From NCBI GenBank assembly GCA_964438995.1, contig CAYTMQ010000011.1:8416-72415 (forward strand): a stretch of 64,000 bases of DNA. The letters are read 5' to 3'. Positions 30,190 to 64,000 of this stretch are shown here, piece after piece. The notes under the pieces are model-generated. The model was not told where the DNA came from. It saw only the letters and a list, made by a program, of their open reading frames with translations, and made no database searches. Position 1 is the first letter of the stretch. The number at the start of each line of letters is the position of its first letter. The DNA comes from an uncultured Chitinophaga sp. (GTDB lineage: Bacteria > Bacteroidota > Bacteroidia > NS11-12g > UBA955). The position numbers were made by a program, and so were the translations under genes.

Positions 30190-30575
30190 AGGTGGATTTT
30201 TTCTTGAGGAGAGAGAGGGATTATTATATGATCCCATTATGGGTAGGCTACAATTCAAAGGATAATCCAAATTGAAATCAATTTGGATTTTATGACTCTA
30301 ACTTATCACTTGAACCCTTGCGGGATTCAGATGAAAGTTTGAGCCATAAAAAAAGTCCAAGCTTTAGCTTGGACTATCATTTGAATTGCGGAGAGAGAGG
30401 GATTGGCTTCGCCGGTCTCGCCAAAACAGCCAATGTATTTCTTCCAATTAGTTTTTCACAATTGGCTGTTTTGGACTCGGCTCGAACCCCGGGGGTTCTC
30501 ATCCCTTTCTCTCTCCTATGCAAAAAAAAATCCAAGCATTAAGCTTGGATTTTTTCTTGCGGAGAGAGAGGGACA
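30190..30575. repeat. Complex repeat region upstream of the integrase: three degenerate ~175 bp tandem units. Each unit has an A-run/hairpin/T-run (tccaa..ttgga stems) and a GGAGAGAGAGGGA motif. Unit 2 forms a ~130 bp palindrome. Candidate attL with arm-type sites, or a MITE-like insertion.
   Basis: GGAGAGAGAGGGA direct at 30208-30220, 30390-30402, 30561-30573 and inverted at 30502-30516. Hairpins at 30262-30285, 30352-30383, 30530-30550. Perfect 12 bp inverted repeat AAAACAGCCAAT / ATTGGCTGTTTT at 30421-30432 and 30461-30472. The ORFs 30318..30542 and 30403..30600 are spurious. Confidence 0.5.
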
Positions 30576-30657
30576 CTCCGCTATACTCATATTTAATTGA
30601 TTTACAGACATTTATTTTATATAGTGTCATTTCAGTGCCAAATATTATATTTGTCCT

Positions 30658-31791
30658 ATGAAAAATTATCGGCTTTGTAAAATTTACAAGGGTGCTAAAA
30701 AAGGTATGCGCCCAACTCTAAACAATTGGTATGTTTACTACTACTTCTTTGATGGTGTCGAATGGAAACGATTCAGACTGAAAGAAGACATCAATACTGC
30801 TAAAACAATCACTGAAAGAACCCACAGAGCAAATGCGCTCAAAGAAGCAATGGATGAATTATTAATGGCCGGTTATAATCCGTTTAGGGATGACAATCGA
30901 ATAATCTTAAAGCAGTTTACCATGAAAGAAGGGATTGATTGGGCAATGTCAAGAAAGAAATTTGCGCACAAAACTCAACTTGATTTTAATTCAATTGTTA
31001 AGCACTTTCATGAAACTTCAGCAAAACTTGGTTATGGTAGTTTAGAATTAAAGAAAGTTACCAGGATAATTATTAGAGAGATCATTGAAAAAATGGTTGA
31101 ATCTAGAAATTTAGGTAATCATGCTTATTTGAAGTACAAAAACAATCTGGGCAATCTATTTGAAGAGCTTGTAAGTTGGGAGAAAATTGATTTTAATCCA
31201 TGTAGGTTTAAGACTACCATCAGAAAACCGAAGCCAAAGACAAAGATTCTATTAAGTGAGGACCAAAGAATGCTGATAAAAAATACTTTGCTTGAAAAAA
31301 ATCCAAACTTTTTCAATTATCTGATGTTTATTAATCTGACTGCATTAAGGCCAGTTGAAATACTTCGCTTAAAAGTCGAGGATATTGATTTAAAGAATTC
31401 TCGAATTATTATAAGGTCAGAAATCACAAAAGATAGCGAAGATAGGATAACCATCATTCCAAAAGCATTAGAACCTTATATCGATATTGATGCGCCAAAG
31501 CACTATTACTTATTTGGCCACGATTTTAAACCTCAAGAACGTAAAAAACCATTGTCTAGAGATAAGGCCACCCACTTATGGCAAGAATTAATCATTAAAG
31601 GACTAGGCATTGATTCTAAAATGTACTGGCTGAAACATCTCGGTTTAACTTCTATGAGACAACAAGGTATTGATCCCGAAATTGTTCAGTACCATGCAGG
31701 GCATTCTACCTATGAAATGACACAAGTTTACGTTTCAAGTGATAGGCCAGAAGTAGTAAAAGCAATTCGAGAAAGAAAAGGGGATTTCTAG
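30658..31791 (+). CDS. Tyrosine-type site-specific integrase (phage integrase family)
   Basis: C-terminal catalytic region with R...HxxR-like LGLTSMRQQG and YHAGHSTYEMTQVY (catalytic Tyr). N-terminal SAM-like DNA-binding part. A Bacteroidetes -7 promoter motif TAtaTTTG lies at 30646-30653. Confidence 0.85.
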   Translation: MKNYRLCKIYKGAKKGMRPTLNNWYVYYYFFDGVEWKRFRLKEDINTAKTITERTHRANALKEAMDELLMAGYNPFRDDNRIILKQFTMKEGIDWAMSRKKFAHKTQLDFNSIVKHFHETSAKLGYGSLELKKVTRIIIREIIEKMVESRNLGNHAYLKYKNNLGNLFEELVSWEKIDFNPCRFKTTIRKPKPKTKILLSEDQRMLIKNTLLEKNPNFFNYLMFINLTALRPVEILRLKVEDIDLKNSRIIIRSEITKDSEDRITIIPKALEPYIDIDAPKHYYLFGHDFKPQERKKPLSRDKATHLWQELIIKGLGIDSKMYWLKHLGLTSMRQQGIDPEIVQYHAGHSTYEMTQVYVSSDRPEVVKAIRERKGDF

Positions 31792-31912
31792 GTAAAGCAA
31801 AATGGACCATAAAATATGGTCCATTCTAACATGAAAAATTACCAACTTGTGTCAATAGTGAATACAAACATAGTTGATAGATTTTTAATTTAATTGCCAA
31901 TTTTATGACACT

Positions 31913-31950
31913 AAAAAAAGCCTATCAAATTAATGATAGGCTTTTAATTT
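31913..31950. terminator. Bidirectional intrinsic terminator-like hairpin (A-run, GCCTATCA-loop-TGATAGGC, T-run) between int and the tRNA
   Basis: aaaaaaagcctatcaaattaatgataggcttttaatttt read directly. Confidence 0.5.
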
Positions 31951-32133
31951 TGACCTACAAGGATTGGTCGGTTTCGTTGTTCTTTTAGGAGATGTTATCA
32001 TTAGTATCGCCCTTTGTAGTTTTCCATTGGCTAACCTTGCATTTACCACATCGAATCAATATTGAGAGGGACGCACAATATAGATTACAGCACTAACCAC
32101 TAATTAAACATTTTGTTCTCCACTTCAAATGTG

Positions 32134-32209
32134 TGGTTGCGAATATCGGACTCGAACCGATGAACTTCTGGTTATGAGCCAGACGAGATACCAACTTCTC
32201 TAATTCGCA
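32134..32209 (-). tRNA. tRNA with CAU anticodon (elongator tRNA-Met, or tRNA-Ile2 if lysidine-modified), 76 nt with encoded CCA
   Basis: Hand-folded cloverleaf: acceptor TGCGAAT/ATTCGCA 7 bp, D-arm GAGA-AGTTGGTA-TCTC, anticodon arm TCTGG-CTCATAA-CCAGA, variable AGTTC, T-arm ATCGG-TTCGAGT-CCGAT, discriminator A, CCA. U1-A72 is paired, so it is not an initiator. Confidence 0.85.
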
Positions 32210-32270
32210 CTACAAATATAAAAAAATGCGAGATTATTTCCAAACCTCGCTTTTTAAACATCAACAATTA

Positions 32271-34391
32271 CTATATCCCACTTATCTCAAAATATTGTAA
32301 AGCTCCACTATGTTCACAATTGTTCCAGAAGTAATACTTGCCATTAACAAATACAACTCCGCCACCATTGGCGTTTCCTGCTGCTTCTTCGCCTGCAATG
32401 GTATTCCAATTGGTTTTACCTCCTCTAAATAGAAGTTTTCCAGTTTGATCATATACAAAGAATAAATTTGTCTGACCTCCTGCACCCCCAAAGAACTCTC
32501 CAATGTACTTAACGAAAACTTTGCCTTTGCATGTCCAAACATTGTCAGCTCCTGCATACTGCATTATTTCGGATGTAGCAAAGAAGTCACCATCTGGATA
32601 AACTCTGCTTTCTCCAACTGCCTTGCTAGGCATTCCATTGTAAATGAATTTACCACTAACAACAAAAGTCAAATGGTATCCTTGATGAGATTTATGTGGC
32701 TGAAACGCAACCAAAGTATCTCCCATCATAGAGAATGTTACCGCTTTGTCAGTAGCGAATGCAGTTGTATTATCTGGTTTAAATTGACTATGCACTACCT
32801 CATTTTTAAACAAGGTGTACTGAAAGTCTTTAAGGGCATCAGAGTAATCTAAACTCAATCTCCAAACAACACCTTTGGTATCAATGTGAAGATTGGCATT
32901 CACTGGATATTCCTTAACTAACTCTGCTTTAGTGGTTAATTTAAAGAGTGTTGGGTATTCATAACCACCTAAGAACTTATTGATTGTGCAATATGTGACA
33001 CCATTAACAGTGACTAAATTTCTCAAAAGGTTTTTACCTTGATTGTATGGCTTAAACTCCTTTGGTAATCCATACGCCCAATTTTTTACAAGTGTATAAG
33101 ACTTGTTTTTGTAGTCATATTTGAACTCTAAAAATCCTGCTGTAACTCTGCTTGGGTCATTCCTATCAACAGAGCATGAATAGGTCATAGGTAAATAATG
33201 GATGTCGTATAAATAAACCCCATTGCTATCGTACACCAATACTCTGCAATTACCATTGTCGCAAACATAGATACGATTAGATTTGTCGATGTAAACACTG
33301 CCAATGTTCTCGTGCGTGTTGTAATCCTCCGAAAAGAAGGTATAATTATCAACTAATGCGCTTGACTGACCTTTACAAATAACTTTGCCGTTATAGGTAA
33401 CATCATTTGCCATTACAACACTACTAGCGCCCCTTGTAAAACTTATTTGAGGTGTGAATGTTGAAGTGCTTAAAAATTTACCATTTAAGTCGTATTTAGA
33501 AAGTGTTTTATCAGTATGGTAAAGGTTTATAGTCCCATTTACAACTTCAATCTTTGTAGGTCGTTTATTTGGATTGCTTTTATAAATACCAATTACTGAT
33601 TTGTAAGGATTGCTTTTATCTTGGTATGTGCACCTGGTTGATACACCACTTGAAAAAATTACTTCATTGTCTGACTTGTCAATAGCGATGACCATACAAT
33701 CTAAATTTGAAGAGTATCCACCATCATCATCTGTTGCAAAAGGATCATATCCTGCCCAAAATAAATAATTGTCAGTTTCAGCGAATGCAGTCACTTCCAT
33801 TACAAAGCCATTTGCAGGTGGTGGCATCACTTCATTTCGTTCCTTTGGATTGTTTATTGGAGATTTAATGACTGGACTTTTACCTTCTGGATAACCAACG
33901 GACATATAAAGGAATCCATTAAATTCTGCTACACATCTAATCGAGCGCAAACCTTTGAATTTCTTTGCACCATAATGCAACCCACTCGAATTATAGACAT
34001 TCCCAGTCCAATTATAGGAAGGTGTTGTAGGAAGTGGATTTGTAGGAATATTAATTATTCTCGGACCAACATAAACAACTGCTTCTTTTAATCCGCATTC
34101 CAATGTTTCATAAATAATCCATCTGTCCAAATAATCAGACTTGCTTGGTTGTAGAGTACCAGTTCCATCACTTTTAAACAATACTTTCCCAATACCACTT
34201 ATTGTTGTAGGAGTTATGGTAGTGGTTGCAGAAGTAGTACGCCTTACACAACTGATGTAGTGAAAGGATACCTTTTTTTTAAGGTTGAAAGTAACCTTGT
34301 TGGTGCCGTTGGTAAATATCGAATCTTGACAATGTAAACTAAAAGGCAAGATAGTTGCTATTATAGCAAAGATGTAAACTAATTTTTTCAT
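32271..34391 (-). CDS. Secreted NHL-repeat / beta-propeller protein (706 aa), a prophage cargo gene ('moron') candidate
   Basis: Signal peptide MKKLVYIFAIIATILPFSLHCQ. NHL-like repeats (IYVCDNGNCRVLVYDSNGVYLYD). Lies between the endolysin and the tRNA. Overlaps the endolysin stop by 4 nt, and a hairpin terminator follows at 32221-32256. Confidence 0.55.
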   Translation of the reverse strand: MKKLVYIFAIIATILPFSLHCQDSIFTNGTNKVTFNLKKKVSFHYISCVRRTTSATTTITPTTISGIGKVLFKSDGTGTLQPSKSDYLDRWIIYETLECGLKEAVVYVGPRIINIPTNPLPTTPSYNWTGNVYNSSGLHYGAKKFKGLRSIRCVAEFNGFLYMSVGYPEGKSPVIKSPINNPKERNEVMPPPANGFVMEVTAFAETDNYLFWAGYDPFATDDDGGYSSNLDCMVIAIDKSDNEVIFSSGVSTRCTYQDKSNPYKSVIGIYKSNPNKRPTKIEVVNGTINLYHTDKTLSKYDLNGKFLSTSTFTPQISFTRGASSVVMANDVTYNGKVICKGQSSALVDNYTFFSEDYNTHENIGSVYIDKSNRIYVCDNGNCRVLVYDSNGVYLYDIHYLPMTYSCSVDRNDPSRVTAGFLEFKYDYKNKSYTLVKNWAYGLPKEFKPYNQGKNLLRNLVTVNGVTYCTINKFLGGYEYPTLFKLTTKAELVKEYPVNANLHIDTKGVVWRLSLDYSDALKDFQYTLFKNEVVHSQFKPDNTTAFATDKAVTFSMMGDTLVAFQPHKSHQGYHLTFVVSGKFIYNGMPSKAVGESRVYPDGDFFATSEIMQYAGADNVWTCKGKVFVKYIGEFFGGAGGQTNLFFVYDQTGKLLFRGGKTNWNTIAGEEAAGNANGGGVVFVNGKYYFWNNCEHSGALQYFEISGI

Positions 34392-34864
34392 AATATTGGG
34401 TATGTGCTTTTAATTTTTGGGAGTGCGTTAAGTTCTTTGGTTGTATAACCAAATGTTTTCTGAAAGTGAGGATAGTCTTTTAATGTTTTGAAGTCTCCAC
34501 CCCATTCCCAACCAAACTCTTTAAATACTTTTACCACTTCCATCCAGTCGGGTATTTTATCTCCATCGAAATCTTCACCTCTGGACCAAACTGCTTTACC
34601 ACTAAAAATAATTGTGATATCAATGGCAAGTCCATAATTGTGATATGATTCACCGGCTCTTGCATTGGTTACAATTTGTCCTGGCATTTGTCTTCCTTTT
34701 GCATACAGATCATTCTGTTCTTTAAAACTTCTGAATGTATGAGTAAATCTACAATATGCAGGACCATTTAATCTCTTGCATATTTCTTCGTAGATTTTAG
34801 TTGCTTCTTCTTGAACTGAAGGATGAAGCAAACTAATTCTTGTTAATGTTACTTGATCGCTCAT
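34388..34864 (-). CDS. Endolysin, peptidase M15 family (L-alanyl-D-glutamate / VanY-like zinc peptidase)
   Basis: Zinc-binding SYHNYGLAIDI (H-x-x-G-x-A-x-D) and downstream DYPHFQ His motif. 158 aa. Adjacent to the holin-like gene. Confidence 0.8.
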   Translation of the reverse strand: MSDQVTLTRISLLHPSVQEEATKIYEEICKRLNGPAYCRFTHTFRSFKEQNDLYAKGRQMPGQIVTNARAGESYHNYGLAIDITIIFSGKAVWSRGEDFDGDKIPDWMEVVKVFKEFGWEWGGDFKTLKDYPHFQKTFGYTTKELNALPKIKSTYPIL

Positions 34865-35106
34865 TTTTTTAAATCTTTATTTTCAACTGGAAATTTACTT
34901 GGAGCTTCTGGTGCATATCCGTAAGCATCACAAACAATCTGTATAGCGTGTCCGCCAATTGTATAGAATATCATAATTAACAACATATCGTGTTCAGATA
35001 TGCCCCAATTACCTATTAATGCGGTTGATAACCCGCTAATGCCTATATAGGCGTATAATCGTCTGAAAATAGACAACCATTTTGGTGTTTTTGTTTTTCG
35101 TGCCAT
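34861..35106 (-). CDS. Holin-like small membrane protein (two predicted TM helices)
   Basis: 81 aa. TM segments LYAYIGISGLSTALIGNWGI and MLLIMIFYTIGGHAIQIVC, charged C-terminus. Immediately upstream of the endolysin with a 4-nt overlap. Confidence 0.5.
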   Translation of the reverse strand: MARKTKTPKWLSIFRRLYAYIGISGLSTALIGNWGISEHDMLLIMIFYTIGGHAIQIVCDAYGYAPEAPSKFPVENKDLKK

Positions 35107-35399
35107 TATTTTGATTTTAAATTAAATTCGTAGAGAGCTTTAGTGTTGTCTTTGATTACCTCATTCTGCATTTGCCACATCATCTGCTGCATTGCATCAA
35201 CTTTTCGATTGAGGTTAAAATTCTGATACGTTAAGACTGCAACCCATGCAACCAGTATCATGACCGCCAATCCTTTTGCGATTATTTCTTTTAAGATTAG
35301 CTTTTTTTCGTCGCTTGTTATTCCTATCATTGCTTTATAAGTACAAATACAAATCTTTGTCCGAGCATTCGGCCACAATTCTATACCCTCTTTTATCAC
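35106..35399 (-). CDS. Small single-TM protein of the lysis cassette (possible spanin/antiholin)
   Basis: 97 aa with one TM helix (GLAVMILVAWVAVLTY). Its position is the only other support. Confidence 0.35.
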   Translation of the reverse strand: MIKEGIELWPNARTKICICTYKAMIGITSDEKKLILKEIIAKGLAVMILVAWVAVLTYQNFNLNRKVDAMQQMMWQMQNEVIKDNTKALYEFNLKSK

Positions 35400-35847
35400 A
35401 TTGATTTTTAAATTCAGTTGGTGTCATTCTATACCAATTCTCCATGTTAAGAACTCTTGCAACAAACTCATAACATGTTGGATAATTCTTACATTTGGTT
35501 TTGTTGCCTATGAAAATACCTCTACCTAATAGCCATTTAGTGAAGTACCAAATGAGCATGAATAGCAAGTCTTCAAATCCGTAACGGACTTTTTTGAATA
35601 CCATCTTGTCAAACTCCTCTTTATTAAAATTGTCATCAGAAACATCAATCACTTGACATTGATAGTCATCTGGCCATAAATAAACCAGTGTTGAGATTAC
35701 TCCCTTAAAATCTGATTCATAAACATATCTCTTGTCCGCAATAGCTACATGGTGCCATCTATCTCCAGTTACTTGTCTGATGATGTGCGATACAATTCTT
35801 AATGGTTTCTTCCATGTGAATGGCTTATATACTCTTACGATTTTCAT
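35335..35847 (-). CDS. Hypothetical phage protein, possibly a permuted papain-like (His then Cys) hydrolase
   Basis: 170 aa. RWHHVAI ... NYPTCYEFV residue order. Weak inference only. Confidence 0.35.
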   Translation of the reverse strand: MKIVRVYKPFTWKKPLRIVSHIIRQVTGDRWHHVAIADKRYVYESDFKGVISTLVYLWPDDYQCQVIDVSDDNFNKEEFDKMVFKKVRYGFEDLLFMLIWYFTKWLLGRGIFIGNKTKCKNYPTCYEFVARVLNMENWYRMTPTEFKNQCDKRGYRIVAECSDKDLYLYL

Positions 35848-36407
35848 AATTGTACTAATTCATTGTTCATTGCTTTTGTTTTCAAGTCTTCCCAAACTTT
35901 AGGCAACTCGTTTTTTACTGTTTCATGTATTGGTTTATCCTGCTCATCTCTGAATGCTTGCCATAAGATATACGCTAAATCAACAGCCAATCCCCCGTTA
36001 TAATCAGTCAATGGCACGACAAAACCACCTAATTTAAATTGTTTAGCATCCCAAAATCCAAATACATCGTATTTAGAATCAATCACAACTCCTACTCCCA
36101 TAGGTGTTGGAGGTGTTGTATCTGGTTTGGTTAAGGTTGATATTTCAATTAAAGGCAAATCTTCAAGCCATGTGAAAATACTTTTAGCCTGGTTGATTTC
36201 TTCTTCACTTATAAAGAAGTCTCCAGAAACGTCTGCTCTTGGTCCTAATAATGTTCCGTCTGGCAATTCATAAAGGTATAACTGCCTAAATTGTTCTATT
36301 GTTAATAATGCTATTCTACTCATCTTCCTAATTGTGTTTCTAATGTATCTATTGCTGCATCTAATAAAGCTACTTGACTGTCTGATGCGCCATGAAAGTG
36401 AATCCAA
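35844..36407 (-). CDS. Hypothetical phage tail-associated protein
   Basis: 187 aa ORF co-oriented with and overlapping its neighbours in the distal tail/lysis region. Confidence 0.4.
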   Translation of the reverse strand: MDSLSWRIRQSSSFIRCSNRYIRNTIRKMSRIALLTIEQFRQLYLYELPDGTLLGPRADVSGDFFISEEEINQAKSIFTWLEDLPLIEISTLTKPDTTPPTPMGVGVVIDSKYDVFGFWDAKQFKLGGFVVPLTDYNGGLAVDLAYILWQAFRDEQDKPIHETVKNELPKVWEDLKTKAMNNELVQL

Positions 36408-37168
36408 ATACTTCTCTTTCTATCACTAAATTGAATGGCAGTACCTCCGTTGTTAACCGCACCTTCAATCAATATTTTAGGTGTCGTGTTTGTAAAAGTG
36501 TTACTTGCTTGAGTAACAGTATTGAATGGAGAACCATTTTTATATTGTTTATAGTTAGCGCTTGAATTTCTACTTATAAAGTATCTTCCAGTTGAATTGG
36601 TGTTGGTGCCAGTATTATTGGTTTGATCTACTAATCTTGATGTGAAATTTGAACCATTACGAGTGTACTGAAGCACGTTAGCAAATCCACCATCAATAAC
36701 CCCGAAATCCGCTTTAACGCCTGATGTATCAGTTTTTAACACGATACCGAATGACTGCGCATTTTGTTGGAAGGTATTACCGTCATAACCGAAAATAGTG
36801 GTCATATATCCAGTTGTTCCGTTAGGTAATGAACCAGTTCCGTCATGTGTCCATCCACCAACATAAGTTCCATCTGGATTGCCAGTTACTGCATTGTATC
36901 TGTGATATGTAGCAGTTCCACCAACTCTAAAGAATGCAAACTCCGAAACAGTTCCTAAATTATCTGCTCCTAAAGTTAATCCATAAATGTCTTTTACTGC
37001 AACAATAAAGGCATCGATATACTCCCATAACTGCTGACCAGTTCTTTCTTGTGCAGAACCAGTATTATATGTAGTAGAATCGTATGCAATACCTTTGTTA
37101 GTGAACAACCTTTTTGTTTCTGGTTGCCATCTTGATTTGCTGCCGTATATGTTAATTATTCTAGTCAC
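36320..37168 (-). CDS. Tail fibre/receptor-binding-like protein (Gly/Thr/Asn-rich)
   Basis: 282 aa, low-complexity T/N/G-rich beta-rich sequence typical of distal tail fibres. Confidence 0.4.
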   Translation of the reverse strand: MTRIINIYGSKSRWQPETKRLFTNKGIAYDSTTYNTGSAQERTGQQLWEYIDAFIVAVKDIYGLTLGADNLGTVSEFAFFRVGGTATYHRYNAVTGNPDGTYVGGWTHDGTGSLPNGTTGYMTTIFGYDGNTFQQNAQSFGIVLKTDTSGVKADFGVIDGGFANVLQYTRNGSNFTSRLVDQTNNTGTNTNSTGRYFISRNSSANYKQYKNGSPFNTVTQASNTFTNTTPKILIEGAVNNGGTAIQFSDRKRSIWIHFHGASDSQVALLDAAIDTLETQLGR

Positions 37169-49796: not shown

Positions 49797-49800
49797 GGGT

Positions 49801-56298: not shown

Positions 56299-56301
56299 AC
56301 T

Positions 56302-56868
56302 CTAAAAAAATAATAACATATTACTGTCTGAACTTGGGGCAGGAGCGCTCTGTGGTAAATACCTCAATGAAATTACTACCTCCAATGAACTTTGTCCGTT
56401 AACTGTTGGTGGGTTTGGTGTTGTTGGCCAATTTGTATAATCTTCAGTAAACTCTGTAAATTGGTTACTTCCTCCTGCTATTGTGTAAATCGTTGTCCAA
56501 TCGTCTGCTACAACTCCAAGATGTAAAACTCCTGCTGAGAAGTTAAATGGAGTTGATAGTGTTTTTACAACTGGCGTTGTGTTATGTGTATCTGATGCGC
56601 TTTCATATAATAATGCTCCTGGCGCTCCGCTTCCATTATCTGCCCAAACACAAAATTTGTAGTTTCCTGGTCCAGTCATATTGAAATAAGCGCTCATGTC
56701 TATTGCAGTACCATCAATTGGTGCCGTTACTTTACATGACCACCATTTTAGAACAGTTCCGCCTGATGTTCCTACTGTATCCGTCCTACCAAGTGTTGAT
56801 ATTGCACTTGATGGAGAACCAATCTGACTATCTCCAATTTGACCTTCACCTAAATAAAAATCAGGCAT
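56302..56868 (-). CDS. Tail-fibre-cluster protein (hypothetical structural protein)
   Basis: 188 aa, T/G/N-rich. 1 bp after the upstream gene. Confidence 0.35.
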   Translation of the reverse strand: MPDFYLGEGQIGDSQIGSPSSAISTLGRTDTVGTSGGTVLKWWSCKVTAPIDGTAIDMSAYFNMTGPGNYKFCVWADNGSGAPGALLYESASDTHNTTPVVKTLSTPFNFSAGVLHLGVVADDWTTIYTIAGGSNQFTEFTEDYTNWPTTPNPPTVNGQSSLEVVISLRYLPQSAPAPSSDSNMLLFF

Positions 56869-56869
56869 A

Positions 56870-57838
56870 TTAAATTAGCTCTAGTGTAGCAAATTCTGTA
56901 ACAATCTCGTTTGATGCATTACTCACTGACATGGTTAATGTTACTTGCAATACTCTATCTGCTGCATCTGAATCAACCGCTGCTGCTCCTTGTATTGCTG
57001 AAGTATTTGCAGCCGTTGACCAAGCATCGCCTATTCCAGTTGTAGGGTTTGTTTTTGCTGCAATGATACCCATAGTTGCAACACCGCTTAAATTTTGGTC
57101 ATTATTCGCTTGTGCCGTAATTGTGAAATCTATGTACCAAGCGTTTCTGTCTGCATCTAAAACTGATGCTCCAGAAATATCACTAAACATTGTAGTCCCA
57201 CCATAAGAAATTATTAGCCTAACTGTTGGAGTTGTGTTGTTTAGCAACATATTACCACCTATACGACATCTTAATTGCCTTCCTGCTAAAAACAATCCAT
57301 TTGGGATTGTTACGCCCGAACCTGCGTTGTTTAAAACATGTATTGGGCTTGATGATGTGTTAGTGGTTTCAACTGTTGTAGTTTTGTAAATTACGATTGG
57401 TCCTTGATCTCTCTGAACTCTTAAATCAATTAACTGATTAGCTGCTAAATTGGTATCAGATGCAGGGACATAAACACAATACAGCAATACATCATTGGTT
57501 GACCTTGCAGGAGGTTTTGGATTAGCTGCCGGTGTTCCGGTTCTTACTTGAAATGCACCAGTAGAATCAACTACGATTAAATCCAATCTTGGGTTTGTTG
57601 AATCTGCAGTTGTAATTGTTACAGTTGCATTCGCTGCAACCGCTTTTAAAACTCCGTTGGTTAATACTGAACCTTTTGCTATTGCATAGGTCATATTTGA
57701 GTTTGATGTTGCTCCAAATCCTGACAAAACGCAGTTTTTACCGCTTATTCCGTCAATCATTGCATCCAAGTATTCTTGAAAGAAAATACTCATTACATCA
57801 TTGACTGCTTCTCCTTTATCTGATATTGTAAATGGCAT
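56870..57838 (-). CDS. Tail-fibre-cluster structural protein
   Basis: 322 aa, T/A/N-rich beta-rich sequence. 1 bp downstream of the tail fibre gene. Confidence 0.35.
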   Translation of the reverse strand: MPFTISDKGEAVNDVMSIFFQEYLDAMIDGISGKNCVLSGFGATSNSNMTYAIAKGSVLTNGVLKAVAANATVTITTADSTNPRLDLIVVDSTGAFQVRTGTPAANPKPPARSTNDVLLYCVYVPASDTNLAANQLIDLRVQRDQGPIVIYKTTTVETTNTSSSPIHVLNNAGSGVTIPNGLFLAGRQLRCRIGGNMLLNNTTPTVRLIISYGGTTMFSDISGASVLDADRNAWYIDFTITAQANNDQNLSGVATMGIIAAKTNPTTGIGDAWSTAANTSAIQGAAAVDSDAADRVLQVTLTMSVSNASNEIVTEFATLELI

Positions 57839-57839
57839 A

Positions 57840-59516
57840 CTATGCTTCTGTTACGGATGCAATACAACCCCACTTGGTGCCGTTGTATATGAATCCTACT
57901 GTTAATTGTTTGTTTGCTGTGGTTGTGGTTGGGAGTGCTACTCCTTTGGCTTCAAATGATGAACCCCAAGTGATTGCTCTCGGAGTTCCATTGTCTTCAA
58001 TTCTGTAAAGTAATTTATCTCCGTTTACTGGTGTTCCACTTAAATTGGTAGTCATTGAAGTGATATCTGCTGCTTGAGCTGTGATTTCAACTTGGTCACA
58101 ATTATCGGTGTTGACTGTTGGAGTTGCATTACTTGTAATGGTAGTTACTCTTTGAGTGATACGTTTGTTTGTAAGTGTTGCAATAGCACTATTTTTGCTT
58201 GAATCCGATGTATTGTCAACGTTTGATAAACCAACATCTGACTTTGTAAGAGATAAATCGGTTTTCAATTGCAACATTGTTCTGTTTACCCAAGAACCTG
58301 ACTTTCTTTGAAGGATATCATCATCAGTTGGTGTTAATGCAGCAATTTGAGTTAATGCAGTAGCTAATGGTTGATAAAGCGTATCAAAGTAAGTTTTTAA
58401 TGTTGCTTTGAAGTTTGCCCAAGTAACTTTTTTGGATGCGTTTGAGCTTGCTGAATCACTTAATGGTAAAGAATCTCCATCAACTGGAGTTGTTTTGCCA
58501 GTTAGTCCAACTATAACCGCTCCGAGTGTAACAGCTCCAGTGCTTCCATCTAATGATAAAAACTGGTCTGTATAGTCGGCCTTAAACCAATTTGATGCAA
58601 ATGTAGAAGTTGATGCATTGTCTAAAATGGCTATAATTCTGTCATTGATATTGAATGATTGGCCGTCTACTGTTCCTGCAACCGATACGATATAACTCCA
58701 TCCTGCTTGAGCAGTTCCAGAACCTGGAAATGAACCACTTGATGCATCCCAAGAACCTTTTAAAATTACTGCCGCATCTAAATCATTAACTCTAGATTCA
58801 ATAGCATCTAAATCTACTGCTTGAGTTACTGATATGTAAGATAACTTGGTTTTTTCTGCTGCTGTTGCAAACTTTTTGGTACTACCTTCTGTTATATCAT
58901 CCGTATCATCAGTTGACTTCATAAATGCCCCTGCTGCTGCCACGTTAGCTGCATCAGTAACATCTGCTCCTGCTTCTATACCACCTAATTTTGAACGCTC
59001 GGATGTAGTTAAAAACAAATTTGTTGCACCTTCAGTGATATCATCCGAATCTGTGATGGCATCTTGTTTGGCATCTAATGCTGCTTGAAGGTCTGTTTGG
59101 TCCGATAATGTTCCAGATATTGAACCCCAAGATGCACCACCTCCACCCCCTGCTGCAGTTTGTACCTTTAGTTTACCATCGGTTGTAAATACTGCGTATC
59201 CTTTGCCGTTAACGTATGTGAATATTTCGCCTGCTGCTAGGGTAAATTTAACCAATGTAGGATTATCAGTGCCGTCATCCTTTTTTAGAGTGATGGTGTT
59301 TGATGTTGAACCATGATTATTTTTAATGCTCAACATTTCGATAACCACTTTTCCATCCTGATCCAAATAAACATCATGAACTGCTATTGATGAATATTGG
59401 TAGTATTTATTGAACGGCTCTAATTGGTTGAATAGATTGTAAGTAATTACAACATCGACATCTGCAGTTGATGATGTTTGAATCTGAAGTTTATCGGATG
59501 TGTTTTGGTGTATCAT
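57840..59516 (-). CDS. Tail fibre protein
   Basis: 558 aa with tandem tail-fibre repeat motifs (DSDDITEGATNLFLTTSERSKL and DTDDITEGSTKKFATAAEKTKL), a poly-Gly linker, and a C-terminal beta-rich receptor-binding-like region. Confidence 0.55.
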   Translation of the reverse strand: MIHQNTSDKLQIQTSSTADVDVVITYNLFNQLEPFNKYYQYSSIAVHDVYLDQDGKVVIEMLSIKNNHGSTSNTITLKKDDGTDNPTLVKFTLAAGEIFTYVNGKGYAVFTTDGKLKVQTAAGGGGGASWGSISGTLSDQTDLQAALDAKQDAITDSDDITEGATNLFLTTSERSKLGGIEAGADVTDAANVAAAGAFMKSTDDTDDITEGSTKKFATAAEKTKLSYISVTQAVDLDAIESRVNDLDAAVILKGSWDASSGSFPGSGTAQAGWSYIVSVAGTVDGQSFNINDRIIAILDNASTSTFASNWFKADYTDQFLSLDGSTGAVTLGAVIVGLTGKTTPVDGDSLPLSDSASSNASKKVTWANFKATLKTYFDTLYQPLATALTQIAALTPTDDDILQRKSGSWVNRTMLQLKTDLSLTKSDVGLSNVDNTSDSSKNSAIATLTNKRITQRVTTITSNATPTVNTDNCDQVEITAQAADITSMTTNLSGTPVNGDKLLYRIEDNGTPRAITWGSSFEAKGVALPTTTTANKQLTVGFIYNGTKWGCIASVTEA

Positions 59517-59883: not shown

Positions 59884-60171
59884 CTAACTGCCAACTTTAT
59901 GACAACGAAGTAGATTGTTTACAATGCTTTCAAACTTCTTATTTGAGAAGCAAGAATCTCTAGCTGCTTCAACTAAATTCTTTGTGCTGTTGTGCGATGA
60001 ACGGCCATACCATTTAGCTATTTGGCTGTGATTCGTCGTTACACATTCGTATGTAACTAAAAACAATGCTTGTCTAGCAAGTGCTAACATGCCTTGTCTG
60101 TTTTTAGATAGTAAATCTTTTTTACTAACTGAAAACTCTTTGCAAACTGATTTGATTATCTCTTCTGTCAT
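59884..60171 (-). CDS. Stand-alone DnaA C-terminal (domain IV) helix-turn-helix DNA-binding protein
   Basis: KNRQGMLALARQALFLVTYECV...SQIAKWYGRSSHNSTKNLVEAA parallels the DnaA domain IV consensus (R.iA.pRQiaMYL.re.t..S...IG..fggRdHtTV.ha). 95 aa. Confidence 0.55.
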   Translation of the reverse strand: MTEEIIKSVCKEFSVSKKDLLSKNRQGMLALARQALFLVTYECVTTNHSQIAKWYGRSSHNSTKNLVEAARDSCFSNKKFESIVNNLLRCHKVGS

Positions 60172-60190
60172 TGGTAGTTGATTTTTGTAT

Positions 60191-60475
60191 TTATTGGTCT
60201 TCCCTATTGGCGTTTCTGAATAAGTTGTGTTGGATTTGTAGTCTTTGGATTTCTGCTTTCAATCGTTCTATTTCAGATTGAAGTTCCTTTGTTTGTCGCT
60301 CGTGTTCGCTTTCGAGGATGAACCCTACTTCTTTATCGTGCAATTTTTCTGCATACGCCCCAACAAATTTTGAACCATCTGTTAAGGCTTGATAGGTTTC
60401 CGCTGTTAAGTAAATTTTAATTGGTGATTTATTGCTCATAGGTTTCTTTAAAATATTGTTCTCCGTTTGCTTCAT
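60191..60475 (-). CDS. Hypothetical phage protein with C-terminal coiled coil
   Basis: 94 aa. Confidence 0.3.
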   Translation of the reverse strand: MKQTENNILKKPMSNKSPIKIYLTAETYQALTDGSKFVGAYAEKLHDKEVGFILESEHERQTKELQSEIERLKAEIQRLQIQHNLFRNANREDQ

Positions 60476-60641
60476 TATTATGTTGGTACTGCCAAACTAT
60501 ATCGCCACCTTTTTCGTGTGCTTCTATAATCTGTTCCTTTTCCATTGCTTTGGCTTTTTGGATTAAGTCTACTGGTAATAATCCTAAAAAATCTTCAACT
60601 TGGTCTATTAGCCATTCGACGGCGGTTTTATTATTGCTCAT
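60429..60641 (-). CDS. Small acidic hypothetical phage protein
   Basis: 70 aa. Overlaps the downstream ORF by 47 nt, so its start is uncertain. Confidence 0.25.
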   Translation of the reverse strand: MSNNKTAVEWLIDQVEDFLGLLPVDLIQKAKAMEKEQIIEAHEKGGDIVWQYQHNNEANGEQYFKETYEQ

Positions 60642-60653
60642 TGGGTTTATTGG

Positions 60654-60884
60654 TTAATGTGTTATTTTATCAGTTTGATAAATGATTTTAGCTTCAAAAT
60701 CTTCATTGTGATTATCAACTTCAAAGCATTCTACTTCACACACATATTTACCACCCCTGTAAAGGTTATGTGCATCGGCTCTCTTAATCGCTTGTGCTTT
60801 CTTTTTATAAACACCTAATACATAAGAATGGTTATTTCTATTACCAAATCTGTATGCACTTACAACGTATATTTCTGCTTTCAT
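60654..60884 (-). CDS. Small hypothetical phage protein
   Basis: 76 aa. Confidence 0.3.
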   Translation of the reverse strand: MKAEIYVVSAYRFGNRNNHSYVLGVYKKKAQAIKRADAHNLYRGGKYVCEVECFEVDNHNEDFEAKIIYQTDKITH

Positions 60885-61330
60885 TTTATATAAGTTAATT
60901 TATTTGCTAATTTTACCATTAAAACACAGAACATAAATGTAAATACTATCCATGCCCACCAATATTCTTGATACCATTTTAATTTGGCTTTAATCTCTAT
61001 CGGTTTAGTATTAGTAATAACCTTACTTTCAACTATTGTGTCTAATTCCCTTTTTGTTTGCTTTATAACACGCTCTCGCCAACTTACGATAGTAATTATA
61101 CTATCCTTACCATTTGACATTATTAGTGTGTCTGTATTGCTAAATGAATCAAATTGTACAATAGTATCATAAGCCCACCCTTTGATTGTATCCCGCAAAA
61201 TGACGGTATCGCTCGTTTCCTTTAAGAATCCGTGTTTTTTAAGCCATTCAGTCTTATTGGTCGCTCTTTGTTGCTTTATTGCAGAGCAACTTGATAAAAC
61301 TATTATTGATACTATTAGTATTTTTTTCAT
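60881..61330 (-). CDS. Phage-encoded lipoprotein with C-terminal TM helix
   Basis: Lipobox MKKILIVSIIVLSSCS. C-terminal hydrophobic helix WWAWIVFTFMFCVLMV. Confidence 0.4.
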   Translation of the reverse strand: MKKILIVSIIVLSSCSAIKQQRATNKTEWLKKHGFLKETSDTVILRDTIKGWAYDTIVQFDSFSNTDTLIMSNGKDSIITIVSWRERVIKQTKRELDTIVESKVITNTKPIEIKAKLKWYQEYWWAWIVFTFMFCVLMVKLANKLTYIK

Positions 61331-61551
61331 CTATTTAATGGTTTTGAAAATGCTGCTTTATATTTGTTTTTATAACCTATTCTAAAATTTCGGTCATAGT
61401 TTGTCATTTTTCTAACAATACCATCCTTTTTAATAAACTCTACCCAAGAACCATCTTGCATAAATACACCCCATTCAAGATAATAAATAAATAATATTGA
61501 ATCTGCTATAATCCAAAATGTAAGTTGTATAAGTGTTGCTATGTGTTTCAT
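61327..61551 (-). CDS. Small membrane protein
   Basis: 74 aa, N-terminal TM helix. Confidence 0.3.
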   Translation of the reverse strand: MKHIATLIQLTFWIIADSILFIYYLEWGVFMQDGSWVEFIKKDGIVRKMTNYDRNFRIGYKNKYKAAFSKPLNR

Positions 61552-61591
61552 ATTTTACTTGATAATAAGATAAGTAGTATGATTAAGTTTC

Positions 61592-61993
61592 TCATTTTAA
61601 AAGTTCTGGGTTTTCGTAAAGGTTGCCAATGACTTCTAAATATTTAGGGGCATTAAAATTAATTAATGAGTTTTCGCATATTGCCACGCCAACTATAAAC
61701 GAGCCTTCAAAAAAACTAATTTGTCCTTTAACATTTCCCTTATATCTGTGAACTACAATATCACCCTCATATATCTCAACTCCATTTTTATCTTTTAGTC
61801 CAGTGTATTGCCTACGAATAATTTTGCCTAAAAAACCATCACCTAAGTCTGAAGAATTGAATACTCCGTGTACGAATCGTGGAAAATAATAACTATGCAC
61901 CCATTCGCCATCTTCTATCCACTCGCTAAATTTGGCAAATTTTTTACCATCGTTGCCTAATATTAGGACTTCAAATTTTATCTCTCTATTCAT
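61592..61993 (-). CDS. YopX-family phage protein
   Basis: IYEGDIV ... GSFIVG ... YLEVIGNLYENPELL C-terminal signature of the YopX family. Confidence 0.7.
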   Translation of the reverse strand: MNREIKFEVLILGNDGKKFAKFSEWIEDGEWVHSYYFPRFVHGVFNSSDLGDGFLGKIIRRQYTGLKDKNGVEIYEGDIVVHRYKGNVKGQISFFEGSFIVGVAICENSLINFNAPKYLEVIGNLYENPELLK

Positions 61994-62043
61994 ATTTTAC
62001 TGCTTAATAGGATAACTAATATAATTAGGTTTTTCATTCTGAT

Positions 62044-62229
62044 TTAAAGGTTTGGTAATGTATTATTCAATTCGTGCTGTTTCAATTCTTCTCTTGAGAA
62101 TTCTGCTATTCGCTTGTTTCCAGAGAAGAAAACTATAGTCTTCATTTTTCTATTCAGTGATACTTTTTGATGCTTCTCTGATAGAATGGAAACTATTTTG
62201 TCTGTAATGTTTTGAACGTCTAAAATCAT
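62044..62229 (-). CDS. Small hypothetical phage protein
   Basis: 61 aa. Confidence 0.25.
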   Translation of the reverse strand: MILDVQNITDKIVSILSEKHQKVSLNRKMKTIVFFSGNKRIAEFSREELKQHELNNTLPNL

Positions 62230-62305
62230 AATAAAATCAATATTGTGATGATGGCGTAAAACACTATTACGGCAATGCCTAAATCCGATTCAAAGTCTCT
62301 ATTTT

Positions 62306-62530
62306 TCATTTGTATTCAAAGTTTAATGCTTGTAAATGCGCTTGCTTTTCACATTCGATAATCGTTTCGATTGCTGTTTTCGGATTAGTGAACATGATTT
62401 TACCCTCGTGGGTTTGATGCCTATAACCTTTGATGTCGATTTTAAGCATTCTTACAATCTCTTCAACTGACATATTCAGTTTGAAATGAGCTTGCACTAC
62501 TTCGATGTATAGTTGTTCGTTGTAACTCAT
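62306..62530 (-). CDS. Small hypothetical phage protein
   Basis: 74 aa. 4-nt overlap with the ATPase gene. Confidence 0.3.
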   Translation of the reverse strand: MSYNEQLYIEVVQAHFKLNMSVEEIVRMLKIDIKGYRHQTHEGKIMFTNPKTAIETIIECEKQAHLQALNFEYK

Positions 62531-63231
62531 TTTCTTTTACTTTCTCCTTCGAATGGCAACCAAATACACATTTCTCTCAATCTGTCATAGATTCTTTCTC
62601 CATACTTTTTGTAGATTTCTTCTTTGGTTAGATTGGATGTGAAGTGTGTGATGAGTAAATTATCTCGCATTGATCTGTATCGGGCATTGATTACTTCAAT
62701 GATTGGATTGGATTTAGTCCCATAATCGTTAATCTCTTCATTTTCTCCTCCTCCAAATTCATCTATTACAAGGTTTCTAACGGATGATAATCGTTTAATG
62801 TAGTCTTCACCTAATGACTTCGCTCCTTTTTTAATCTCGTCAACGTGAGCTACCATAAAAGTGTCGTTGTTGATGTAGGACAAAGGCGAAAATTTTCGTC
62901 CACCAACTTCAGGAGAAAGTTTAGTGTAAATCATTTCATAGATTTTGAAATTAAATGTTTTGCCAGTTCCAGTGTTACCGAACACGAATAAACCTTTGAG
63001 TTTATTTTCTTTGTGTTCTGGATAATACTCATCAGATGTTGAGCAAAAGTGTTCAATGTACTTCTGTGCTAACGAATCTGTTTCGTACTGCCCATGTCGG
63101 AGTTGAATTTGACCAACTGTTGACCAGTAGGTTTCTAGTAACTCCTTTTTGAAACGCCTGATTTTCTTGTCCTCGATTGGACCGATCAGTTGTTTTTTTA
63201 CTTCTGCGATTTTATTGTCTATTGATTCCAT
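62527..63231 (-). CDS. DnaC/IstB-like AAA+ ATPase (replicative helicase loader)
   Basis: Walker A GNTGTGKTF, Walker B LVIDEFGG, sensor THFTSNL. 234 aa. Confidence 0.75.
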   Translation of the reverse strand: MESIDNKIAEVKKQLIGPIEDKKIRRFKKELLETYWSTVGQIQLRHGQYETDSLAQKYIEHFCSTSDEYYPEHKENKLKGLFVFGNTGTGKTFNFKIYEMIYTKLSPEVGGRKFSPLSYINNDTFMVAHVDEIKKGAKSLGEDYIKRLSSVRNLVIDEFGGGENEEINDYGTKSNPIIEVINARYRSMRDNLLITHFTSNLTKEEIYKKYGERIYDRLREMCIWLPFEGESKRK

Positions 63232-63877
63232 TTGTTGGTTCCCATGTGTTATCGTATTTTTTACCTCGTGTTGTGAATACAGTCTCTGTTGGTGTTTGCT
63301 TCAGAGGGAAGACATCTTGCCAACCTCTAGTGATTGATTGCTGAAGGATTAATATTTTTTCTTGCTCATTACCTGGAGCAAGATTTTCTAATTTGTCGAG
63401 AATTAGTTTTTTAGCGTAATCGGTTAATGGTTTTTTGATTTTGATTCTAAATTTTTCAAATTCATCAAATGTTTTTTCGAACTCACTTTTATTATTAATT
63501 ATATATATATTTTCATCTCTATTTTCATCTTCCATGTGTTTAACTAGTGTTTTTGACTTCTTTTTCACTTGTTTTTTAGTGTCCTTTATCTTACCTAGTC
63601 TATTCTTTGCTCTTGATTCACTAAATGATTTTCTCTTGTTTATTTCATTTTCAAGGCGCAAATTGTAGTAAAAACCATCTTCATCTATTTCGAATTTTTG
63701 CAACACTTCATTGTCTTTTGTTTTACATATGAATAACACTTGTTTTTCACTTAACCTACCATGTTGATGTTGAGCACATAACAGACGAATATAGATGCCA
63801 ACTTCTTCGTTACTCATGAATTGAGTACCACTAATAAAGTCGTTTGTATAAAACATGAATGCGGGGTCTTTTGCCAT
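63212..63877 (-). CDS. Replisome-organiser / replication-initiation protein candidate (DUF1376/Phage_rep_org_N-like N-terminus)
   Basis: N-terminal MAKDPAFMFYTNDFISGTQFMSNEEVGIYIRLLCAQ pattern, basic middle region. Directly upstream of the DnaC-like gene, overlapping it by 20 nt. Confidence 0.45.
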   Translation of the reverse strand: MAKDPAFMFYTNDFISGTQFMSNEEVGIYIRLLCAQHQHGRLSEKQVLFICKTKDNEVLQKFEIDEDGFYYNLRLENEINKRKSFSESRAKNRLGKIKDTKKQVKKKSKTLVKHMEDENRDENIYIINNKSEFEKTFDEFEKFRIKIKKPLTDYAKKLILDKLENLAPGNEQEKILILQQSITRGWQDVFPLKQTPTETVFTTRGKKYDNTWEPTNGINRQ

Positions 63878-64000
63878 ATTAAAATAAAGTGAGTTGATTT
63901 GATTGTTGATTGTTAGTTTTAAAAATTCTTTTGTCGGAATTAAATGGTATTCCAGGTACGCAATTTCTACAGTATAAAGTTAATCTGCCATTTAAGTAAG

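What the first reader, a model, noticed from the sequence alone, without database searches (positions are those of the whole stretch)
30190..64000. At least 33 kb HK97-type siphovirus-like prophage with a complete modular gene set, running off the window
Every gene from 32271 to 63877 is on the minus strand and reads as a coherent temperate-phage genome. The order is DnaD-like organiser and DnaC-like loader, YopX, a stand-alone DnaA-domain-IV protein, a tail-fibre cluster, TerS (KWLLSKLAPKKYGDK), TerL, portal, S78 protease, HK97 capsid with delta domain, connectors, Ig-tailed major tail protein, chaperones, a 783 aa tape measure (roughly a 115-120 nm tail at 0.15 nm per residue), Dit, an 1181 aa Tal-like protein, a holin / M15 endolysin pair and a secreted moron. 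The integrase sits on the opposite strand at the left end. The palindromic repeat family found in the host part of the window seems absent from this block, which fits foreign origin. The lysogeny-control end and attR are beyond 64000.
Basis: partly seen in the sequence, partly recalled or inferred. Interest (0 to 1): 0.6.

Follow-up and report, generated by a model that had tools for sequence, protein, structure and literature searches.

The report
43 kb prophage in tRNA-Ser gene
The region is an ordinary but apparently intact, about 43 kb temperate tailed-phage genome integrated into a serine tRNA gene of an uncultured Bacteroidota bacterium; three quarters of it lie in the window, and it is only distantly related to any isolated phage.

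Summary
From 32271 to 63877 every gene is on the minus strand. Profile searches identify an M15 endolysin, tape measure, HK97-family capsid protein, S78 protease, portal, TerL, Sf6-type TerS, a DnaA-domain-IV protein, YopX, a DnaC-like loader and a DUF1376 replication protein, with a tyrosine integrase on the plus strand at 30658-31791. Public contigs identical to the window extend it to about 73716. They add recombination genes, a cro-like gene, an S24 repressor and the 3' end of a tRNA-Ser(UGA) gene. The 17-nt core TTGCGGAGAGAGAGGGA occurs at 30557-30573 (attL) and at about 73685-73701 (attR), giving a prophage of about 43.1 kb. A related phage contig carries int, a tRNA-Ser-like core and the repressor operon contiguously, which is the predicted attP form, with the same 84-nt int-to-core spacing.

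Corrections:
- The 592-aa "Dit" has a gp27-like baseplate-hub fold.
- No frameshift signal was found between the "chaperone" genes.
- The 706-aa "moron" is a secreted double beta-propeller that recurs after lysis genes in other phages.
- tRNA-Met at 32134-32209 is phage cargo.
- The palindrome-absence argument is weak.

Verdict: a new member of a known kind, of low interest.

The parts
30204..30220 (+). Outer att-like copy 1 (TTGAGGAGAGAGAGGGA, 16/17). Inferred relic of an earlier integration at the same tRNA-Ser.
30386..30402 (+). att-like copy 2 (17/17, matching the tRNA over 19 nt), preceded by a hairpin at 30354-30375. It is followed by a degenerate inverted copy of the tRNA-Ser 3' end at about 30491-30522. 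Inferred relic.
30557..30573 (+). attL core TTGCGGAGAGAGAGGGA, the displaced 3' end of tRNA-Ser(UGA). A terminator hairpin lies to its left (30520-30560). It sits 84 nt upstream of the int start, the same spacing as in the attP of relative L103.
30658..31791 (+). Tyrosine integrase (377 aa), 49% identical to the integrase of relative L103.
32134..32209 (-). Phage-borne tRNA with a CAU anticodon (Met or Ile2 type) and an encoded CCA end, lying between two terminator-like hairpins.
32271..34391 (-). 706-aa secreted protein: signal peptide, N-terminal beta-sandwich and tandem beta-propellers, with one NHL repeat hit. It is the last gene of the late strand. Function unknown.
34388..34864 (-). Endolysin, peptidase M15_4 / VanY type.
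34861..35106 (-). 81-aa protein with two hydrophobic segments. A holin candidate by position and by eye only.
   Evidence: no family hit
35106..35399 (-). Small protein (74-97 aa depending on the start) with one hydrophobic segment. Candidate lysis accessory protein.
35335..37168 (-). Three genes (170, 159/187 and 282 aa) of unknown function. They form a mosaic module shared with phage contigs L106 and L107.
37161..38378 (-). 405-aa distal tail protein (phrog_12180, function unknown). Conserved in L103 and L104.
38375..41920 (-). 1181-aa distal tail protein with no family hit. Probably a central fibre or receptor-binding protein, inferred from position. 55-57% identical in L103 and L104.
41901..42089 (-). 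62-aa protein conserved between the hub gene and the 1181-aa gene.
42089..43867 (-). 592-aa baseplate hub (gp27 / Mu gp44 / Tal-N-terminal fold) with an inserted helical hairpin. It is not a Dit.
43864..46215 (-). Tape measure protein (783 aa).
46208..47183 (-). Two genes before the tape measure: 155 aa (phrog_6195 'tail protein') and 166/187 aa (hydrophobic). They are in the assembly-chaperone position, but no frameshift signal was found.
47356..48294 (-). 312-aa major tail (tube) protein. It has an N-terminal tube-like part and a C-terminal Ig-like part (weak Invasin_D3 hit).
48287..50220 (-). Head-tail connector and decoration region: 238 aa, 191 aa (DUF6712), 78 aa and 125/139 aa.
50232..51638 (-). 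Major capsid protein of the HK97 family (PF05065) with an N-terminal delta-like region.
51635..52348 (-). Prohead serine protease, S78 family.
52329..53699 (-). Portal protein.
53764..55065 (-). Terminase large subunit (Terminase_3).
55383..55877 (-). Terminase small subunit (Sf6-type).
56302..59516 (-). Fibre-like cluster upstream of TerS: 558 aa, 322 aa and 188 aa. The 558-aa protein has more than 2000 homologues; a few of the 120 listed carry collagen-like or Mtd_N domains. The 322-aa protein gives weak PHROG baseplate / virion-structural hits.
59884..60171 (-). Stand-alone DnaA domain IV (Bac_DnaA_C) protein, 95 aa.
60191..62530 (-). Small early genes, including a 149-aa putative lipoprotein (60881-61330) and YopX (61592-61993).
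62527..63231 (-). DnaC-like helicase loader (234 aa).
63212..63877 (-). DUF1376 replication-initiation / primosomal protein (221 aa).
63878..64000 (-). The prophage continues past the window end. A further 9.7 kb (L002) carries three HNH genes, NinB, a metallo-hydrolase, RecT, an SMC-like ATPase, a cro-like gene, the S24 repressor, three small genes and attR in tRNA-Ser(UGA).

Best explanation
Window 30557-64000 is the left 33.4 kb of a complete-looking temperate tailed phage of about 43.1 kb. It has an HK97-fold capsid and a long, probably non-contractile tail. It is integrated by its own tyrosine integrase into the 3' end of a tRNA-Ser(UGA) gene of an uncultured Bacteroidota host.

Integration (inferred from the anatomy): recombination took place between a 17-nt core in attP and the same 17 nt at the tRNA 3' end.
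- attP lies between int and the repressor operon.
- The displaced original tRNA end and its terminator remained at attL, next to int.
- At attR the phage supplies the new tRNA end and a terminator.

Gene order after excision, on one strand: cro-like, recombination genes, replication genes (DUF1376 protein plus DnaC-like loader), small early genes including a DnaA-domain-IV protein, fibre-like genes, TerS, TerL, portal, S78 protease, capsid, connectors, tube protein, tape measure, gp27-like hub, distal tail proteins, holin candidate and M15 endolysin, secreted double-propeller protein, tRNA(CAU). The repressor operon and int read the other way, across attP.

Shown: gene identities, both att copies, continuity with host DNA, and the attP arrangement in a relative.
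Inferred: siphovirus morphology, activity (inducibility), and the roles of the fibre-like, 1181-aa and 706-aa proteins.
For: - Gene content.
- Strand coherence.
- Extension of the window: identical Logan contigs from several runs join the host lactamase gene, int and the phage genes and extend to 73716.
- Right-end content: S24 repressor, cro-like gene and other genes.
- The right end stops in GTCCGGGGGTTCGAATCCCTCTCTCTCCGC. This is the exact 3' end of tRNA-Ser(UGA) genes in 8 of 8 metagenome loci tested.
- The 17-nt core occurs three times in the window against 0 expected and once at the right end.
- Relative L103 has late genes, then int on the opposite strand, then an intergenic region with a tRNA-Ser-like 3' end, then three small genes, then the S24 repressor. 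The int-to-core spacing is 84 nt, as here.
- Nearest isolated phages by capsid protein: Tenacibaculum phage JQ at 53% aa and the Flavobacterium vB_FspS phages at 42% aa. TerL, TerS and the tape measure also match the latter.
- The tail tube family profile hits a solved 'tube protein'.
- No sheath family was hit in any scan.
Against: - Only 31 nt of the tRNA at attR are available, and the host flank beyond it was not recovered.
- No empty attB site and no attP junction were found in the collections that could be scanned.
- A 94%-identical relative of the host (L102) has neither the tRNA nor the prophage next to the lactamase gene. It carries different genes from window 30127 onward, so the ancestral state of the locus is unknown.
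- Two further att-like copies lie just outside attL, so the choice of junction rests on the spacing argument.
- Base composition gives no signal.
- Morphology and inducibility are untested.
- No Dit-like protein was recognised.
Confidence: 0.88

Rival explanations
1. The element is a cryptic prophage. It was integrated as described but can no longer excise or form particles.
For: No attP or empty-site sequence was found. No Dit was recognised. Relics of earlier elements at the same site show that decay does happen here.
Against: All modules are present as uninterrupted, tightly packed ORFs. Both att cores are perfect 17-mers. Integrase, repressor and cro-like genes are intact. The collections searched do not include the raw reads in which junctions would appear.
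Confidence: 0.12
2. The tail is contractile. In this reading the 312-aa protein is a small sheath and the 155-aa 'tail protein' is the tube.
For: The best structural matches of the 592-aa hub are hubs of contractile-tailed phages and pyocin-like particles. The hub follows the tape measure directly, without a Dit. The 155-aa protein hits a PHROG named only 'tail protein'.
Against: The N-terminal half of the 312-aa family matches a solved tube protein, not a sheath. No sheath family was hit. Siphovirus Tal and hub proteins (80alpha gp59, T5 pb3) are also among the structural matches. The same roughly 310 / 150 / 190 aa / tape-measure gene pattern occurs in the Flavobacterium phages named vB_FspS, where S conventionally denotes siphovirus morphology.
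Confidence: 0.06
3. The integrase belongs to a different element that uses the tRNA-Met at 32134-32209 as its attachment site, and the phage merely lies next to it.
For: int and the tRNA-Met gene converge, as in many tRNA-integrated islands.
Against: Nothing mobile lies to the left of int; host synteny with L102 runs up to 30126. No tRNA-Met fragment is repeated. The att core next to int matches the tRNA-Ser at the far end. Relative L103 has the homologous int joined to the repressor operon across a tRNA-Ser-like core and has no tRNA-Met.
Confidence: 0.02
4. The host-phage junction is an assembly chimera of a free phage genome and a bacterial contig.
For: Logan contigs tend to break near 28862, near 30490-30520 and at 73716.
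Against: Contigs from at least three separate sequencing runs cross lactamase, the att region, int and the late genes with 100% identity. One 44862-nt contig spans 28855-73716.
Confidence: 0.02

Closest known systems
Flavobacterium phages vB_FspS_* (genus Lillamyvirus and relatives, e.g. NC_048836) and Tenacibaculum phage JQ (MT002873)
   Same: They are Bacteroidota phages of 38-41 kb with the order TerS, TerL, portal, protease-like gene, HK97-family capsid, a protein of about 310 aa, two small genes, tape measure, large distal tail proteins, lysis. Amino-acid identities to this prophage are: capsid 42-53%, TerL 37%, TerS 43%, part of the tape measure 33-44%.
   Different: There is no nucleotide-level similarity, and only 3-6 of 43 proteins match. 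The annotations of the two records list no integrase or repressor. They have no fibre genes ahead of TerS, a different replication module and amidase-type lysins.
Uncultured relatives L103 (GCA_034680565.1 contig JAXOUH010050957.1), L104 and L105 (Logan contigs of 41-47 kb)
   Same: Identity is 40-75% aa across the head and tail modules, apart from the L103 capsid at 31%. L103 has the int, tRNA-Ser-like core and S24 repressor layout. L105 has Bac_DnaA_C proteins and the 558-aa fibre gene directly before TerS.
   Different: The relationships are mosaic. L104 has another head module. L103 lacks the M15 endolysin, the 706-aa gene and the tRNA. L105 has a different recombination module (YqaJ, ParB_N).
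Lambdoid and other temperate phages that integrate into tRNA genes through tyrosine integrases
   Same: A tyrosine recombinase and a short core identical to a tRNA 3' end duplicated at both ends. An S24 (LexA/CI-like) repressor is divergent from a cro-like gene.
   Different: attP lies between int and the repressor operon, so in the prophage int ends up next to the late/lysis end rather than next to the repressor. No excisionase was recognised.
HK97 head assembly system (protease plus capsid protein with delta domain, no separate scaffold)
   Same: An S78 protease gene lies immediately upstream of a PF05065 capsid gene whose first 190 or so residues precede the capsid domain.
   Different: The capsid ORF carries a further hydrophobic N-terminal extension of about 57 aa, shared only with L105. 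Cross-linking residues were not examined.

Membership tests
Integrated temperate Caudoviricetes prophage | Packaging and head genes: terminase, portal, HK97-fold capsid, maturation protease | tested here: met
   PF04466, PF20901, PF04860, PF05065 and PF04586, all above Pfam cut-offs, with PHROG agreement.
Integrated temperate Caudoviricetes prophage | Tail and lysis genes | tested here: met
Integrated temperate Caudoviricetes prophage | Integrase plus lysogeny switch | tested here: met
   PF00589 integrase. S24 repressor divergent from a 67-aa cro-like gene on the identical extension L002.
Integrated temperate Caudoviricetes prophage | Direct repeat (att core) at both ends, with one end in host DNA | tested here: met
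   The 17-nt core lies at 30557-30573 and at L002 16-32. The left flank is syntenic with a related host up to 30126. The right flank beyond the tRNA was not available.
Integrated temperate Caudoviricetes prophage | Empty site or excised circle observed | tested here: not met
   Exact searches for attB, attP and the attR junction found nothing in the genome, metagenome and viral collections. Raw reads could not be searched. The attP form is seen only in a relative.
tRNA-targeting tyrosine-integrase elements | The core equals the 3' end of a tRNA gene | tested here: met
   The last 30 nt at the right end are the exact 3' end of tRNA-Ser(UGA) in 8 of 8 loci typed by ARAGORN.
Siphovirus morphotype (long non-contractile tail) | Tube protein and tape measure present, no sheath | tested here: inconclusive
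   No sheath family was hit. The tube-like hit is weak. The nearest isolates are named vB_FspS. Morphology itself cannot be read from sequence.
Siphovirus tail tip (tape measure, Dit, Tal) | A Dit-fold protein directly after the tape measure | tested here: not met
   The protein after the tape measure has a gp27 / Mu gp44 hub fold. No other candidate was recognised.
Programmed-frameshift tail chaperones (G/GT type) | Slippery site and an overlapping open frame before the tape measure gene | tested here: not met
   No XXXYYYZ heptamer was found and the -1 frame is full of stops. The second gene can start at its own ATG after the first gene's stop.
Genus Lillamyvirus or the species of Tenacibaculum phage JQ | Genome-wide nucleotide similarity; the roughly 70% genus level is the ICTV convention as I recall it | tested here: not met
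   Megablast of 18 kb against 50,697 phage records gave no match. Only 3-6 proteins are shared, at 29-53%.

The most novel reading that the evidence does not exclude
The prophage and its uncultured relatives (L103-L105) may form an undescribed genus- or family-level lineage of temperate Bacteroidota phages with three conserved departures from the textbook siphovirus layout:
- Fibre or receptor-binding genes sit at the head of the late strand, before TerS.
- A gp27-like hub follows the tape measure directly, with no recognisable Dit.
- Stand-alone DnaA-domain-IV proteins are encoded in the early region. They could compete with host DnaA for DnaA boxes.

In addition, a secreted double beta-propeller protein is linked to the lysis cassette.
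Probability: 0.4. Interest if true: 0.3.

Novelty: new member of a known kind. Interest (0 to 1): 0.2.

Why it matters
It gives a cleanly delimited, apparently intact temperate phage for a poorly sampled Bacteroidota lineage. The closest host gene matches are only 58-66% identical and come from Saprospiraceae or unclassified Bacteroidota MAGs. The att sites, the integration target (tRNA-Ser UGA) and the full gene map are defined, which is useful for annotation and for host-phage linkage in the source metagenomes. It adds no new principle. The parts that might repay work are the Dit-less hub arrangement, the fibre genes placed before the terminase, the phage DnaA-domain-IV protein and the secreted propeller protein.

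Tried and rejected
- Megablast of 18 kb against isolated phages gave no match.
- Exact-pattern scans all gave no match: the attR junction in GTDB genomes, attB in JGI metagenomes and attP in IMG/VR.
- A portal-based search of IMG/VR found no close relative.
- Host-gene synteny in GTDB genomes: the best lactamase homologues are 58-66% identical and none has a tRNA-Ser nearby, so no empty site could be shown.
- I first suspected that the integrase and the tRNA-Met formed a separate element. I rejected this after finding the tRNA-Ser core at both ends and the attP layout of L103.
- A repeated TTTGGCMC motif as integrase arm sites is not enriched in the window. At attR it forms part of a terminator-like hairpin instead.
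- PADLOC scan of ten unassigned proteins found no defence system.
- Rfam found only the tRNA-Met.
- Direct PDB sequence searches with the 592-, 1181-, 312- and 558-aa proteins found nothing.
- Foldseek of the 706-aa model gave only generic beta-propeller matches.
- The 120 metagenome loci carrying the same tRNA-Ser 3' end hold no homologue of this integrase or of any phage protein apart from one weak hit.
Its cluster look-up showed that the window's genome lacks close copies of those genes.

Full report
**Observation.** The ORF table shows a continuous series of minus-strand ORFs from 32271 to 63877, with overlaps or very short spacers, and a single plus-strand ORF of 377 aa at 30658-31791. 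GC content and skew do not set the block apart from the rest of the window. ARAGORN and Rfam find one RNA gene, a tRNA with anticodon CAU at 32134-32209 on the minus strand.

**Gene identities.** PHROG and Pfam scans of all 43 ORFs gave the following:
- tyrosine integrase (PF00589)
- M15_4/VanY endolysin at 34388-34864
- tape measure at 43864-46215 (phrog_14476, phrog_20660)
- HK97-family capsid protein (PF05065, residues 199-446 of 468)
- S78 prohead protease
- portal (PF04860)
- TerL (Terminase_3)
- Sf6-type TerS
- a 95-aa Bac_DnaA_C protein
- YopX
- a DnaC-like loader
- a DUF1376 protein that PHROGs name primosomal / replication initiation

'DnaD-like' is better stated as DUF1376.

**Extent and ends.** Exact-protein look-ups returned Logan contigs from several sequencing runs that are 100% identical to the window. 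One contig of 44,862 nt corresponds to window 28855-73716. Locus L002 supplies the 9.7 kb beyond 64000. Going outward from the window end, it carries:
- three HNH endonuclease genes
- NinB
- a metallo-hydrolase
- RecT
- a 669-aa SMC-like ATPase
- small genes including a 67-aa HTH (cro-like) protein
- then, divergently, a 202-aa S24-peptidase repressor followed by three small genes, one of them a putative lipoprotein

L002 ends in GTCCGGGGGTTCGAATCCCTCTCTCTCCGC. In 8 of 8 metagenome loci typed, that 30-mer is the exact 3' end of a tRNA-Ser(UGA) gene.

A k-mer comparison found the same TTGCGGAGAGAGAGGGA at window 30557-30573, 84 nt upstream of the integrase start. Further copies lie at 30386-30402 (perfect) and 30204-30220 (one mismatch). 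That makes three matches in the window against none expected.

**Which copy is the junction.** A related phage contig, L103, has 31-69% aa identity over head and tail genes and 49% for the integrase. It shows the late genes, then int on the opposite strand, then a 223-nt spacer, then three small genes and the S24 repressor. The spacer contains CTCCCTAGCTCTCCGCGA, a tRNA-Ser-like 3' end, starting 84 nt from the int start codon. This is exactly the attP arrangement predicted by joining the window's copy 3 to the L002 end, with identical spacing.

I therefore take 30557-73701 (about 43.1 kb) as the prophage. Copies 1 and 2 each have their own hairpin, and copy 2 is followed by a degenerate inverted tRNA-like fragment. 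I read them as relics of earlier integrations at the same tRNA. That reading is an inference.

In the tRNA orientation, the phage arm at attR carries a 10-bp hairpin followed by a T-run. It would serve as a terminator for the rebuilt tRNA (by inspection).

**Host context.**
- A JGI contig, L102, is 94% identical in DNA. It is collinear with the window from 25912 to 30126, except for a 165-nt GC-rich segment present only in the window.
- Beyond 30126, L102 continues with TfoX_N, a cyclase-like gene and a glyoxalase gene, with no tRNA or prophage.
- Those three proteins have no relatives at 90% identity or more in the collection that holds the window's own genome. The locus is therefore variable between close relatives, and no empty site is available.
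- The best GTDB matches to the flanking lactamase-fold gene are 58-66% identical: Saprospiraceae and unclassified Bacteroidota MAGs.

**Tail.**
- *312-aa protein.* A profile of this protein and its counterparts weakly matches a solved 'tube protein' over its N-terminal half (E 0.009). Its C-terminal part gives a weak Ig-like hit.
- *Genes before the tape measure.* No slippery heptamer was found and the -1 frame is not open.
- *Sheath.* No sheath family was hit.
- *Conclusion.* The nearest isolated phages by capsid, TerL, TerS and tape measure are Flavobacterium vB_FspS phages and Tenacibaculum phage JQ. A non-contractile tail is therefore the best reading, but it is not proven.

**Accessory features.**
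- *Fibre-like cluster.* The 558-aa protein has more than 2000 homologues; a few of the 120 listed carry collagen-like or Mtd_N domains. In relative L105 its 68%-identical counterpart also sits directly before TerS, so this unusual position is a feature of the lineage.
- *706-aa protein.* It belongs to a family of 20 proteins, most with a conserved signal peptide. Its model has an N-terminal beta-sandwich and tandem beta-propellers. Homologues follow the M15 endolysin in an unrelated phage contig (L106) and close the late region in L107. L103 lacks it. It is phage-associated accessory cargo of unknown function.
- *tRNA(CAU).* It lies between two terminator-like hairpins and inside the att sites.
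- *Defence genes.* None were detected.

**The repeat argument.** The palindrome AACCTTRYAAGGTT occurs 8 times, but at only three loci, all within 4.4-14.2 kb. With three independent loci, its absence from the prophage carries little weight.

**Verdict.** The finding is real and its interpretation is essentially right. This is an apparently intact temperate phage of about 43 kb integrated in tRNA-Ser(UGA), distantly related to known Bacteroidota siphoviruses. It is a new member of a known kind and of low general interest. A few lineage-specific oddities are listed under the novel reading.

Noticed in passing
window 28815-28979 (within a GC-rich stretch at about 28740-28990): A 165-nt segment of 62% GC in a 35% GC genome is present here but absent from the 94%-identical relative L102. 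It lies between the TonB-dependent receptor gene and the lactamase-fold gene. Logan contigs from three runs break at 28862. It folds stably on the minus strand (-55.6 kcal/mol), has no Rfam match, and is single-copy in the window.
   Followed up: partly
window 4409-4453, 11350-11394, 14055-14164: A 16-nt palindrome, CAACCTT(G/A)(T/C)AAGGTTG, occurs in pairs or as four copies at a 32-nt period with similar spacers. This REP-like host repeat family has 8 copies against 0.07 expected.
   Followed up: partly
window 30386-30522: Between att-like copies 2 and 3 lies a 137-nt imperfect palindrome. Its ends resemble the tRNA-Ser acceptor and T-arm in opposite orientations, and it has a perfect 14-nt inverted repeat inside (30421-30434 / 30461-30474). 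It looks like a degenerate tRNA-derived relic. ARAGORN and Rfam do not call it.
   Followed up: partly
window 30127 onward, compared with L102: Synteny with the close relative ends at 30126. The relative carries TfoX_N, a cyclase-like gene and a glyoxalase gene there instead of the tRNA-Ser relics and prophage. Those genes have no close copy in the window's genome, so this is a variable locus.
   Followed up: partly
window 51468-51638 (N-terminus of the capsid ORF): The capsid ORF starts with a hydrophobic segment of about 57 aa ahead of the delta-like region. The segment is conserved in relative L105 but absent from L103 and from the isolated phages. It could be a true extension or a mis-set start.
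   Followed up: partly
window 59884-60171; L105 6270-6994; L106 20684-21181: Small proteins consisting of little more than DnaA domain IV recur in the early regions of several Bacteroidota phage contigs, with two copies in L105. One full-text literature search found phage proteins that bind DnaA (YqaH, YfdR) but nothing on phage-encoded domain-IV mimics.
   Followed up: partly
window 49801-50220 and 60881-61330: Two small phage proteins begin with signal-peptide-like or lipoprotein-like N-termini. The 139-aa protein sits between the capsid and connector genes, but other gene callers start it 14 residues later. The 149-aa protein has an LSSC lipobox-like motif and a C-terminal hydrophobic segment.
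   Followed up: no
L002 7674-9249 (window-equivalent about 64.5-66.0 kb): Three consecutive HNH / NUMOD4-type endonuclease genes lie in the early region just beyond the window end.
   Followed up: no
L146 9736-9765 and 10467-10496: An unrelated metagenome contig carries the same tRNA-Ser(UGA) 3' 30-mer twice, 731 nt apart, with only one tRNA called. This may be another small insertion at this tRNA.
   Followed up: no
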